From Escherichia coli O157:H7 (lineage in GTDB: Bacteria; Pseudomonadota; Gammaproteobacteria; Enterobacterales; Enterobacteriaceae), in NCBI RefSeq assembly GCF_013167455.1, contig NZ_CP038328.1: DNA of 64,000 nt, one strand, 5' to 3'. The position numbers are program-made. Shown here piece after piece: positions 28,860 to 31,800 of this stretch. Within the stretch, counting starts at the first letter, position 1. Every line of letters starts with the position of its first letter.

Positions 28860-31800
28860 TAATCTCGATTGATATCGAACAAAGGGCCTGCGGGCCCTTT
28901 TTTCATTGTTTTCAGCGTACAAACTCAGTTTTTTGGTGTACTCTTGCGACCGTTCGCATGAGGATAATCACGTATGGAAATAAGCTTTACCCGCGTGGCA
29001 CTGCTGGCTGCCGCGCTCTTCTTTGTTGGTTGCGATCAAAAACCACAACCCGCCAAAACCCACGCTACTGAAGTTACCGTTCTTGAAGGCAAAACTATGG
29101 GTACCTTCTGGCGTGCCAGCATCCCGGGCATTGACGCCAAACGCAGCGCCGAACTTAAAGAAAAGATTCAGACCCAGCTGGACGCCGACGATCAGCTGCT
29201 TTCGACCTATAAAAAAGATTCCGCGCTGATGCGCTTTAACGACTCGCAAAGTTTATCGCCGTGGCCGGTAAGTGAAGCGATGGCCGATATCGTCACCACC
29301 TCGCTACGCATTGGCGCGAAGACCGATGGCGCGATGGATATAACCGTCGGGCCGCTGGTGAATCTGTGGGGTTTCGGTCCGGAACAACAGCCGGTTCAAA
29401 TTCCGAGCCAGGAACAGATCGACGCGATGAAAGCCAAAACTGGTTTACAGCACCTTACGGTCATTAATCAGTCGCATCAGCAATATCTGCAAAAAGACCT
29501 GCCGGATTTATATGTCGATCTCTCCACCGTCGGCGAAGGTTATGCGGCGGATCACCTGGCACGCTTGATGGAGCAGGAAGGGATTTCCCGCTATCTGGTG
29601 TCGGTGGGCGGCGCGCTGAACAGCCGTGGTATGAACGGTGAAGGCCTGCCGTGGCGGGTAGCGATTCAAAAACCAACCGATAAAGAAAACGCGGTTCAGG
29701 CCGTGGTGGATATCAACGGTCATGGGATTAGCACCTCTGGCAGCTACCGTAACTATTACGAACTGGACGGCAAACGTCTTTCCCATGTTATCGATCCGCA
29801 AACCGGGCGTCCCATCGAACACAATCTGGTATCCGTGACGGTGATTGCACCGACGGCGCTGGAAGCCGACGCCTGGGATACAGGTTTGATGGTACTCGGG
29901 CCGGAGAAAGCCAAAGAAGTTGTTCGCCGGGAAGGGCTGGCGGTTTATATGATCACCAAAGAAGGCGATAGCTTTAAAACCTGGATGTCACCACAGTTTA
30001 AAAGCTTCCTTGTCAGCGAAAAAAATTAAAGCGCAAGATTGTTGGTTTTTGCGTGATGGTGGCCGGGCAGACTAAAGGCTATCCTTAACCAGGGAGCTGA
30101 TTATGAAAAACGCCACATGCTTAACTGACGATCAACGCTGGCAATCTGTCTTAGCCCGCGACCCGAATGCCGACGGCGAATTCGTTTTCGCCGTGCGCAC
30201 CACAGGCATCTTTTGCCGTCCGTCTTGCCGCGCCAGACATGCTTTGCGGGAAAACGTCTCCTTCTACGCAAATGCCAGCGAGGCACTCGCCGCCGGATTT
30301 CGCCCCTGCAAACGCTGCCAACCTGATAAAGCCAATGCCCAGCAACATCGGTTGGATAAAATCACCCACGCGTGTCGACTGCTGGAACAGGAAACGCCTG
30401 TAACGTTGGAAGCCTTAGCCGACCAGGTGGCGATGAGTCCATTTCATCTACATCGGTTGTTTAAAGCGACTACCGGAATGACGCCTAAAGCCTGGCAACA
30501 GGCCTGGCGCGCTCGCCGTTTGCGCGAATCGCTGGCGAAAGGGGAGAGCGTGACGACGTCTATTCTTAACGCCGGATTCCCCGACAGCAGCAGTTACTAC
30601 CACAAAGCCGATGAAACGCTGGGCATGACGGCTAAACAATTCCGTCACGGTGGCGAAAATCTGGCGGTGCGTTACGCGCTGGCTGATTGTGAGCTGGGTC
30701 GTTGCCTGGTGGCAGAAAGCGAGCGGGGGATTTGCGCGATATTGCTGGGCGATGATGACGCGACATTAATCAGCGAGTTGCAGCAGATGTTTCCCGCTGC
30801 CGACAACGCGCCTGCCGATCTGACGTTTCAGCAACATGTGCGTGAAGTGATCGCCAGCCTCAATCAACGCGATACTCCGCTGACGTTACCGCTGGATATT
30901 CGCGGCACTGCTTTTCAGCAACAAGTCTGGCAGGCACTGCGCACGATACCTTGCGGTGAAACCGTCAGTTATCAGCAACTGGCTAACGCCATCGGCAAAC
31001 CGAAAGCGGTACGGGCCGTTGCCAGCGCCTGTGCCGCCAACAAGCTGGCTATCGTAATTCCCTGTCATCGAGTGGTCCGTGGTGATGGCACACTTTCCGG
31101 TTACCGCTGGGGCGTGTCGCGTAAAGCGCAACTGCTGCGCCGCGAAGCTGAAAATGAGGAGAGGTAATGTTGGATCTGTTTGCCGATGCTGAACCGTGGC
31201 AAGAGCCACTGGCGGCTGGTGCGGTAATTTTACGGCGTTTTGCTTTTAACGCTGCAGAGCAACTAATCCGCGATATTAATGACGTTGCCAGCCAGTCGCC
31301 GTTTCGCCAGATGGTCACCCCCGGGGGATATACCATGTCGGTGGCGATGACCAACTGTGGGCATCTGGGCTGGACGACCCATCGGCAAGGTTATCTCTAT
31401 TCGCCCATTGATCCGCAAACAAATAAACCGTGGCCCGCCATGCCGCAGAGTTTTCATAATTTATGTCAACGTGCGGCTACGGCGGCGGGCTATCCAGATT
31501 TCCAGCCAGATGCTTGTCTTATCAACCGCTACGCTCCTGGCGCGAAACTGTCGCTGCATCAGGATAAAGACGAACCGGATCTGCGCGCGCCAATTGTTTC
31601 TGTTTCTCTGGGCTTACCCGCGATTTTTCAATTTGGTGGCCTGAAACGTAATGATCCGCTCAAACGTTTGTTGTTGGAACATGGCGATGTGGTGGTATGG
31701 GGCGGTGAATCGCGGCTGTTTTATCACGGTATTCAACCGTTGAAAGCGGGGTTTCATCCACTCACCACCGACTGCCGCTACAACCTGACATTCCGTCAGG

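What the first reader, a model, noticed from the sequence alone, without database searches (positions are those of the whole stretch)
30021..30040. Exact Ada box overlapping the apbE stop codon
AAATTAAAGCGCA matches the Ada-binding consensus and physically overlaps the last codon and stop of apbE, so the ada promoter is embedded in the 3' end of the upstream gene.
Basis: partly seen in the sequence, partly recalled or inferred. Interest (0 to 1): 0.25.

Follow-up and report, generated by a model that had tools for sequence, protein, structure and literature searches.

The report
Known ada promoter Ada box at apbE stop
This is the textbook binding site where methylated Ada protein switches on the E. 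coli ada-alkB DNA-repair operon; it does overlap the last codon and stop codon of the upstream gene apbE, and that overlap is conserved across enteric bacteria, but the site itself is long known and ordinary.

Summary
Confirmed and already known. AAATTAAAGCGCA lies at 30023-30035 and is unique in the window. No match occurred in 100 shuffles. It covers the last apbE codon (AAT, Asn351, 30024-30026) and the TAA stop (30027-30029). The ada start codon is 73 nt further on. The window is O157-type E. coli and is identical to K-12 from the apbE 3' end through the box. Reviews identify this sequence as the Ada operator of the ada promoter, as AAANNAAAGCGCA or as A box AAT-N6-B box GCAA. The A box is the final apbE codon, the stop codon lies in the spacer, and the B box and core promoter are intergenic. 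So only the upstream edge of the promoter is embedded in apbE.

New here: in 79 of 80 loci from 17 named Enterobacteriaceae genera, AAT-TAA-A-NN-GCAAG sits in the same register. The terminal Asn codon is AAT in 73 of 73 genomes, while other conserved Asn codons use both synonyms. The stop is always TAA. One species with an earlier stop still keeps the box. A conserved CAnnnT hexamer 35 nt from the B box, matching aidB, puts +1 near 30080 and the box near -57 to -45. An RBS-occlusion hypothesis was tested and rejected. Interest is low.

The parts
28974..30029 (+). apbE (ftp) coding sequence, FAD:protein FMN transferase, 351 aa plus stop
   Evidence: ORF list. NCBIfam NF007774, E = 7.8e-219, full length. 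RefSeq annotation of identical genomes.
30018..30026 (+). A-rich tract GAAAAAAAT, the last three apbE codons (Glu-Lys-Asn). It is the upstream, A/T-rich part of the Ada / RNA polymerase alpha-subunit binding region.
   Evidence: Sequence. The region 30020-30040 is 16/21 A/T. The UP-like / alpha-CTD role comes from the literature (PMC4437013, and my memory of Landini & Volkert 1995).
30023..30035 (+). Ada box in the classical definition, AAATTAAAGCGCA (AAANNAAAGCGCA)
   Evidence: Unique exact match, 0/100 shuffles. Identical in K-12. Consensus taken from PMC6505713 and PMC3788762.
30024..30026 (+). A box AAT, which is also the last sense codon of apbE (Asn351)
   Evidence: AAT in 73/73 full-length apbE genes from 17 named genera and never AAC. 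A-box contacts by Ada R45/R71 per PMC4437013.
30027..30029 (+). apbE stop codon TAA, lying in the 6-nt spacer of the Ada site
   Evidence: TAA in 74/74 genomes. Columns 30027-30030 are invariant in 80 distinct junctions.
30033..30037 (+). B box GCAA plus an invariant G (GCAAG), intergenic
   Evidence: Invariant in 80 distinct junction sequences. B-box contacts by F114/H115/R118 per PMC4437013.
30039..30050 (+). Conserved block TTG-nn-GGTTTTT downstream of the B box, occupying the -35 position. It is not TTGACA-like. Inferred to be contacted by Ada and/or sigma region 4.
   Evidence: Conservation profile. Unchanged in divergent E. coli and in E. albertii except one base. Its function is inferred.
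30051..30067 (+). 17-nt variable spacer between the two conserved promoter blocks. It holds the only two window/K-12 differences in the promoter (30063 and 30072 is just past it).
30068..30073 (+). -10-like hexamer CAGACT (CAnnnT; C, A and T each 99% conserved)
   Evidence: Same 35-nt offset from the B-box G as the aidB hexamer CATACT. A C-first aidB -10 element is mentioned in PMC3141248.
30077..30086 (+). Inferred transcription start zone, best guess about 30080
   Evidence: Inferred from the -10-like hexamer. The tiling-array segment boundary between the MNNG-unresponsive apbE segment and the next segment maps to about 30083 at 7-14 nt resolution (PMC6505713 supplement). Not mapped directly here.
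30092..30105 (+). ada Shine-Dalgarno GGGAG (30092-30096) and ATG start (30103-30105)
30103..31167 (+). ada coding sequence. Ada keeps C38/C42/C69/C72, R45, R71, F114, H115, R118 and C321.
   Evidence: N-Ada structures 1ZGW, 1U8B, 1WPK and 1ADN match at E <= 3e-58.
31167..31817 (+). alkB, second gene of the operon. Its start overlaps the ada stop by 1 nt (TAATG).

Best explanation
This is the Ada operator of the ada-alkB promoter. After Ada repairs a methylphosphotriester it carries a methyl group on Cys38. It then binds the A box AAT (30024-30026) and the B box GCAA (30033-36), just upstream of a weak core promoter. That core has a GGTTTTT block at the -35 position, a 17-nt spacer and a -10-like CAGACT, with +1 near 30080. 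Bound Ada recruits RNA polymerase through the alpha and sigma subunits, which gives autoinduction of ada-alkB. Because the apbE-ada gap is only 73 nt, the upstream half of the site is written in the last apbE codons. The A box is the Asn351 codon, and the TAA stop lies in the spacer of the site. These bases are therefore under both coding and regulatory constraint. What is shown here: the sequence, the gene identities, identity to K-12, the conservation and the synonymous-site constraint. What comes from the literature: Ada binding and activation. What is inferred: the exact +1 and the roles of the -35-position block.
For: The exact unique 13-mer is at 30023-30035. ApbE, Ada and AlkB are identified. 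The region is 100% identical to K-12 from the apbE 3' end to 30062. Reviews and papers name AAAGCGCA / AAT-N6-GCAA as the Ada site of the ada promoter, give the contacting residues, and describe alpha-subunit-dependent activation. A -100 to -1 fragment is MMS/MNNG-inducible. The window's Ada keeps every DNA-reading and methyl-acceptor residue. AATTAAANNGCAAG occurs exactly once, at the junction, in 79/80 loci from 17 named genera. The terminal codon is AAT in 73/73, against 54-86% majority-codon use at the six other conserved Asn columns. Only 4 of 185 conserved-residue columns show >=97% use of a single codon. The stop is TAA in 74/74, while the preceding tail residues vary. L077 has an earlier TAG stop yet keeps AAT TAA AGCGCAAG. 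The Salmonella form GAATTAAAACGCA found in L024 and L025 matches the published Salmonella box. The spacing to a C-first -10 hexamer is the same as in aidB.
Against: None of substance. The primary footprint and start-site papers could not be read here, so positions relative to +1 are inferred. The simple sigma-70 scan finds no promoter, which is expected for an activator-dependent promoter. One locus (L033, Enterobacter asburiae) has CAT in place of AAT.
Confidence: 0.94

Rival explanations
1. The motif is a chance match and the real Ada site of this promoter lies elsewhere.
For: The degenerate consensus AAANNAAAGCGCA also hits two unrelated places in the window. The short AAT-N6-GCAA pattern is common: 7 hits against 15.6 expected.
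Against: The exact 13-mer never appears in shuffles. It is identical to the K-12 ada promoter. It is the only A/B-box pair in the 100 nt upstream of ada. It is conserved in register in 79/80 loci.
Confidence: 0.01
2. The invariance of AAT-TAA reflects only a protein-level requirement for the ApbE C-terminus, so the overlap with the Ada site adds no constraint.
For: The terminal Asn is conserved in 73/74 ApbE proteins.
Against: The synonymous third base is invariant (AAT 73/73, never AAC), while other conserved Asn codons use both synonyms. The stop is always TAA. The residues just before the terminal Asn vary freely. In L077 the codon is no longer translated yet is retained. The invariant block continues into non-coding DNA (A, GCAAG).
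Confidence: 0.04
3. Besides being the Ada site, the terminator-less junction couples the two genes. Transcription from apbE either runs into ada and supplies basal Ada, or interferes with the ada promoter.
For: There is no intrinsic terminator between the apbE stop and the ada ATG. Tail-to-head synteny holds in 80/80 loci, with gaps of about 66-83 nt in 78 of them. The yjfC-aidB junction has the same layout and also lacks a terminator. The tiling-array apbE segment extends to about 30083.
Against: Basal Ada is about 1 molecule per cell and many cells have none (PMC8643705). Ectopic and plasmid Pada reporters without apbE transcription behave like the native locus. The tiling-array boundary may simply mark the ada start. 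No direct read-through data were available.
Confidence: 0.12
4. Read-through RNA from apbE is kept translationally silent because sequence upstream of the ada start site pairs with the ada ribosome-binding site.
For: There are striking complementarities in some genera, such as Kluyvera TTCCTCCTTTT / AAAAGGAGGAG and Pseudocitrobacter CTCCTCCAG / CTGGAGGAG. 9 of 79 loci have z < -1.64.
Against: In E. coli z = 0.02. Over 79 loci the mean z is -0.38. The lower accessibility of the long RNA (0.39 against 0.52) is nearly matched by shuffled upstream sequence (0.42).
Confidence: 0.03
5. The conserved GGTTTTT block after the B box is the U-tract of an intrinsic terminator for apbE.
For: The T-run is conserved at 84-100% per column. 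A few species have CCGCAAGATTGCGG just before it.
Against: The terminator scan finds nothing in the gap. The E. coli fold is unremarkable, z = -1.53. In most genera the possible stem is only 3 bp, and the variable NN positions do not co-vary with the downstream arm.
Confidence: 0.04

Closest known systems
E. coli K-12 ada promoter (Ada box of the ada-alkB operon)
   Same: Base-for-base identical from the apbE 3' end through the A box, B box and -35-position block. Same gene order ompC-apbE-ada-alkB-yojI.
   Different: Two substitutions between the -35-position block and the start zone (30063 G/A in the spacer and 30072 A/C in the -10-like hexamer), plus Asn instead of Lys at Ada residue 3. Neither touches a conserved position of the hexamer (C, A, T).
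E. coli aidB promoter (Ada- and alpha-subunit-dependent, same class as ada)
   Same: AAT-N6-GCAA, followed 35 nt after the B-box G by a C-first -10 hexamer (CATACT against CAGACT). It also sits at the very end of a co-directional upstream gene with no terminator: yjfC TAA, then G, then AAT.
   Different: The A box lies 1 nt beyond the yjfC stop and does not overlap it. There is no GGTTTTT block. The base before the B box is A and not C, which the literature links to about 10-fold lower affinity (PMC4437013).
E. coli alkA promoter
   Same: AAT-N6-GCAA is present (ggAATatgaaaGCAAagcgca), and the old-consensus string AAAGCAAAGCGCA is there too.
   Different: The site lies closer to the core promoter, and the activation mode differs: both Ada forms activate, and the polymerase contacts are different (PMC4437013). 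The upstream neighbour yegD is divergent, so there is no coding overlap.
Salmonella ada promoter (published box GAATTAAAACGCA)
   Same: Same register on the apbE stop: AAG AAT TAA AACGCAAG in S. enterica subsp. diarizonae and arizonae. This matches the form quoted in PMC3788762.
   Different: The core is AAAACGCA and not AAAGCGCA. The intergenic gap is 80 nt. Salmonella Ada is reported to be a weaker activator.

Membership tests
Ada operator (Ada box) of the adaptive-response regulon | A box AAT (A/T triplet), 6-nt spacer, B box GCAA | tested here: met
   AAT 30024-26, TAAAGC, GCAA 30033-36. Definition from PMC4437013 and PMC6505713.
Ada operator (Ada box) of the adaptive-response regulon | Older consensus AAANNAAAGCGCA | tested here: met
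   Exact match at 30023-30035, 0/100 shuffles.
Ada operator (Ada box) of the adaptive-response regulon | Lies directly upstream of the core promoter of an Ada-regulon gene | tested here: met
   The box ends 67 nt before the ada ATG. ada is identified by NCBIfam NF011964. The spacing to the conserved -10-like hexamer equals that of aidB.
Ada operator (Ada box) of the adaptive-response regulon | Same sequence as the experimentally characterised K-12 site | tested here: met
   Alignment with NC_000913.3.
Ada operator (Ada box) of the adaptive-response regulon | Cognate regulator present, with its DNA-reading residues (R45, R71, F114, H115, R118) and methyl acceptors (C38, C321) | tested here: met
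   All are present in the window's Ada. Residue roles from PMC4437013 and PMC3788762.
Ada operator (Ada box) of the adaptive-response regulon | Bound by methylated Ada, and transcription induced by alkylating agents | not testable with these tools
   Literature only. The -100 to -1 fragment is inducible (PMC3788762). The primary footprint papers are not held.
Class I, UP-like activator site (-60 to -40) contacted by the RNA polymerase alpha subunit | A/T-rich DNA about 60-40 bp upstream of +1 | tested here: inconclusive
   30020-30040 is 16/21 A/T. That stretch equals -60 to -40 only if +1 is about 30080, which is inferred and not mapped. The alpha-subunit requirement comes from PMC4437013.
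Intrinsic terminator of apbE within the gap | G+C-rich hairpin followed by a U-run | tested here: not met
   No site between 30030 and 30102. The fold z-score is -1.53.

The most novel reading that the evidence does not exclude
The terminator-less tail-to-head junction is a selected design. It is conserved in 80/80 Enterobacteriaceae loci and mirrored at yjfC-aidB. Under this reading, occasional RNA polymerase read-through from apbE supplies the rare, stochastic basal Ada molecules that prime the positive-feedback switch. Alternatively, read-through transiently occludes the Ada site and helps set the noise of the adaptive response.
Probability: 0.1. Interest if true: 0.45.

Novelty: already known. 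Interest (0 to 1): 0.14.

Why it matters
The site is the archetypal Ada operator, so confirming it adds nothing to the biology of the adaptive response. The comparative result is a modest addition. The last codon and stop codon of apbE double as the A box and spacer of the operator in at least 17 named genera, with clear selection on a synonymous base and on the choice of stop codon. This is a clean small example of a transcription-factor site constraining the end of a coding sequence. It is also a practical warning: deleting, tagging or recoding the apbE (ftp) C-terminus will damage the ada promoter, and 'ada promoter' reporter fragments must include the apbE 3' end. The comparison also shows that the E. 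coli core AAAGCGCA is a minority variant. AAT-N6-GCAAG is the conserved determinant, in agreement with the structure-based definition.

Tried and rejected
1. RBS occlusion in apbE read-through RNA. I computed partition-function accessibility of the ada RBS in long and short RNAs for 79 loci, with 40 dinucleotide shuffles of the upstream part per locus. E. coli gave z = 0.02 and the mean z was -0.38, so I rejected it as a general mechanism.

2. An intrinsic terminator for apbE in the gap. None was found. The conserved T-run has no conserved hairpin.

3. TTGCGT (30049-54) as the -35 and TAAAGG (30073-78) as the -10, which I half-remembered. Neither is conserved even within E. coli, so I preferred the conserved GGTTTTT / CAnnnT blocks. 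The true +1 remains unmapped here.

4. Reading the primary mapping papers: Nakabeppu & Sekiguchi 1986, Landini & Busby 1999, Landini & Volkert 2000 and Hakura 1991. None is held. A full-text search for the promoter sequence found nothing.

5. Literature on the apbE/ada overlap. Nothing relevant was found.

6. The two other consensus matches, at 52614 and 52833. They sit in a prophage-like repeat and lack the A box.

Full report
**Observation.** The window around the finding reads ...GTC AGC GAA AAA AAT TAA AGCGCAAGATTGTTGGTTTTTGCG.... It is the only exact copy in the 64 kb window on either strand, and none of 100 dinucleotide-preserving shuffles contained one. The 351-aa ORF at 28974-30029 is ApbE/Ftp (NCBIfam equivalog, E = 7.8e-219). 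The next ORF, 30103-31167, is Ada (E = 1.4e-226). It is followed by AlkB and YojI and preceded by OmpC. The last apbE sense codon is AAT (Asn351) at 30024-30026 and the stop is TAA at 30027-30029. The box therefore overlaps the last base of the Lys codon, the Asn codon and the stop.

**Source and identity to the reference.** The segment is 100% identical to many O157-type E. coli chromosomes and is present in 5421 of 5426 complete E. coli genomes. Aligned with K-12 MG1655, the junction is identical from the end of apbE through the box and on to 30062. The differences are 30063 and 30072, downstream of the conserved -35-position block, and one base in the third ada codon. The most divergent E. 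coli junction (93.7% identity), ST131 and E. albertii all keep GAAAAAAATTAAAGCGCAAGATTGTT(G/A)GTTTTTG. Variation falls at apbE synonymous sites and in the promoter spacer.

**Comparison with the mapped site.**
- The held literature says the Ada-binding sequence of the ada promoter is AAAGCGCA, within the consensus AAANNAAAGCGCA (PMC3788762, PMC6505713).
- Structural work (He et al. 2005, PDB 1ZGW) redefined it as an A box AAT and a B box GCAA separated by 6 nt. R45 and R71 read the A/T pairs, and F114, H115 and R118 read the B box (PMC4437013).
- The window has AAT at 30024-26, the spacer TAAAGC, and GCAA at 30033-36.
- The window's Ada keeps all these residues, plus the Zn/methyl-acceptor cysteines and C321. 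It matches the solved N-Ada structures.
- A reporter carrying -100 to -1 relative to the ada ATG corresponds to window 30003-30102 and so includes 27 nt of apbE. It is strongly induced by MMS and MNNG (PMC3788762).
- I could not read the primary footprint and start-site papers.
- From memory, unverified here: methylated Ada protects about -63 to -31, and the -60 to -40 region doubles as an UP-like alpha-subunit site.

**Promoter anatomy from comparison.** A scan of one genome per species returned 80 loci from 17 named Enterobacteriaceae genera: Escherichia, Citrobacter, Salmonella, Kluyvera, Trabulsiella, Kosakonia, Enterobacter, Lelliottia, Yokenella, Pseudocitrobacter, Pluralibacter, Leclercia, Raoultella, Huaxiibacter, Superficieibacter, Klebsiella and Intestinirhabdus. 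apbE is the immediate upstream neighbour of ada in all 80. The gap is about 66-83 nt in 78 of them.

An ungapped profile anchored on the stop codon shows the following.

| Element | Window coordinates | Conservation |
|---|---|---|
| AATTAAA | 30024-30030 | invariant |
| NN | 30031-30032 | variable |
| GCAAG | 30033-30037 | invariant |
| TTG | 30039-30041 | conserved |
| GGTTTTT | 30044-30050 | conserved |
| spacer, 17 nt | 30051-30067 | variable |
| CAnnnT | 30068-30073 | C, A and T each 99% |

In the K-12 aidB promoter the C-first hexamer CATACT lies at the same 35-nt offset from the B-box G. A C-first aidB -10 element is mentioned in PMC3141248. I therefore infer that CAGACT is the ada -10 element and that +1 is near 30080. 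A tiling-array study puts the boundary between the MNNG-unresponsive apbE segment and the next segment at about window 30083, at 7-14 nt resolution (PMC6505713 supplement). This is consistent with the inference. The simple sigma-70 scan finds no promoter, as expected for an activator-dependent promoter.

**The overlap is conserved and constrained.**
- AATTAAANNGCAAG occurs exactly once per locus, in the same register on the apbE stop, in 79 of 80 loci. The exception, L033, has CAT.
- In a codon-aware alignment of 74 full-length apbE genes, the terminal Asn codon is AAT in 73 of 73 and never AAC. The six other conserved Asn columns use their majority codon in only 54-86% of genomes.
- Only 4 of 185 conserved-residue columns reach 97% use of a single codon.
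- The stop is TAA in 74 of 74, yet the residues just before the terminal Asn vary.
- In L077 ApbE ends one codon earlier at TAG, but AAT TAA AGCGCAAG is retained as non-coding DNA.

Together these show that the bases are held by the operator function as well as by coding. The E. coli core AAAGCGCA is a minority form. Most genera have AAAAAGCAA, and Salmonella has AAAACGCA, matching the published GAATTAAAACGCA. This supports the A/B-box definition over the older consensus.

**Mechanism.** Per the literature, methylation of Ada Cys38 removes electrostatic repulsion. Ada can then bind the A and B boxes and recruit RNA polymerase via the alpha and sigma subunits, and polymerase binds this promoter only with methylated Ada present (PMC4437013). 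In this window the operator's upstream half is written in the last apbE codons, while the B box and core promoter are intergenic. This is ordinary genome compaction around a well-known site.

**Side hypotheses tested.** No intrinsic terminator separates apbE from ada, although basal Ada is only about one molecule per cell (PMC8643705). I asked whether read-through RNA hides the ada ribosome-binding site, prompted by striking complementarities in Kluyvera and Pseudocitrobacter. Accessibility calculations with shuffled-upstream controls gave z = 0.02 for E. coli and a mean z of -0.38 over 79 loci. I rejected the idea as a general mechanism. Whether apbE transcription enters ada remains open. The yjfC-aidB junction has the same terminator-less, stop-codon-abutting layout.

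**Verdict.** Both the observation and the interpretation are right, with the qualification that only the operator's upstream edge is inside apbE. The feature is already known. The cross-genus conservation and the synonymous-site evidence are small descriptive additions. Interest is low.

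Noticed in passing
window 52592-52644 and 52811-52863 (consensus hits at 52614-52626 and 52833-52845, minus strand): Two copies of AAAGCAAAGCGCA lie in a 53-nt direct repeat, 219 bp apart. 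This string is identical to the 13-mer in the alkA promoter. Each copy is followed by a GCGCAAAATTGCG-type palindrome. They lack the AAT A box and are not upstream of any recognisable alkylation-repair gene.
   Followed up: partly
window about 52200-55000: DNA that is absent from an otherwise collinear O157 reference follows yejO (49586-52177). It encodes a phage capsid-family protein (53181-54158, minus strand) and a small terminase (54312-54938, minus strand), so it looks like a prophage or satellite-like insertion. The 601-bp probe from it matches 1458 E. coli genomes at variable positions.
   Followed up: partly
L085 (K-12 yjfC-aidB junction) 140-193: The aidB Ada site starts 1 nt after the yjfC stop (TAA G AAT gtttta GCAA). 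No terminator lies in the 83-nt gap. This is the same tail-abutting layout as apbE-ada, and the -10 hexamer CATACT is at the same 35-nt offset from the B box.
   Followed up: partly
L023 2330-2490 (Citrobacter sedlakii) and L078 2320-2490 (Klebsiella indica): Two unrelated insertions of about 150 nt, each folding into a long hairpin (-63 and -67 kcal/mol), sit in the ada leader downstream of the conserved promoter. They stretch the gap to 227 and 234 nt and look like independent small repeat or MITE-like insertions.
   Followed up: partly
L077 2417-2436 (labelled Escherichia sp. ESNIH1; its Ada is only 65% identical to the window's): apbE has a TAG stop one codon before the usual AAT TAA, so here the A box is non-coding but is still retained.
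   Followed up: yes
L026, L035, L039, L043, L066 (Kluyvera) and L050, L051, L059 (Pseudocitrobacter), promoter spacer against the ada RBS: A 9-11-nt perfect complement of the ada Shine-Dalgarno region lies in the promoter spacer, upstream of the inferred start site. Examples are TTCCTCCTTTT / AAAAGGAGGAG and CTCCTCCAG / CTGGAGGAG. This may be lineage-specific RBS occlusion in read-through RNA. It is not seen in E. coli.
   Followed up: partly
window 30033-30042 and the equivalent positions in most loci: In most genera the B box is part of a perfect palindrome, GCAAGATTGC. E. coli has GCAAGATTGT. The conserved TTG..GGTTTTT block beyond the B box has no assigned role. It could be contacted by the second helix-turn-helix of Ada's AraC-type domain or by sigma region 4.
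   Followed up: no
window 31164-31170: The ada stop and the alkB start overlap by one base (TAATG), the known translationally coupled operon junction.
   Followed up: no
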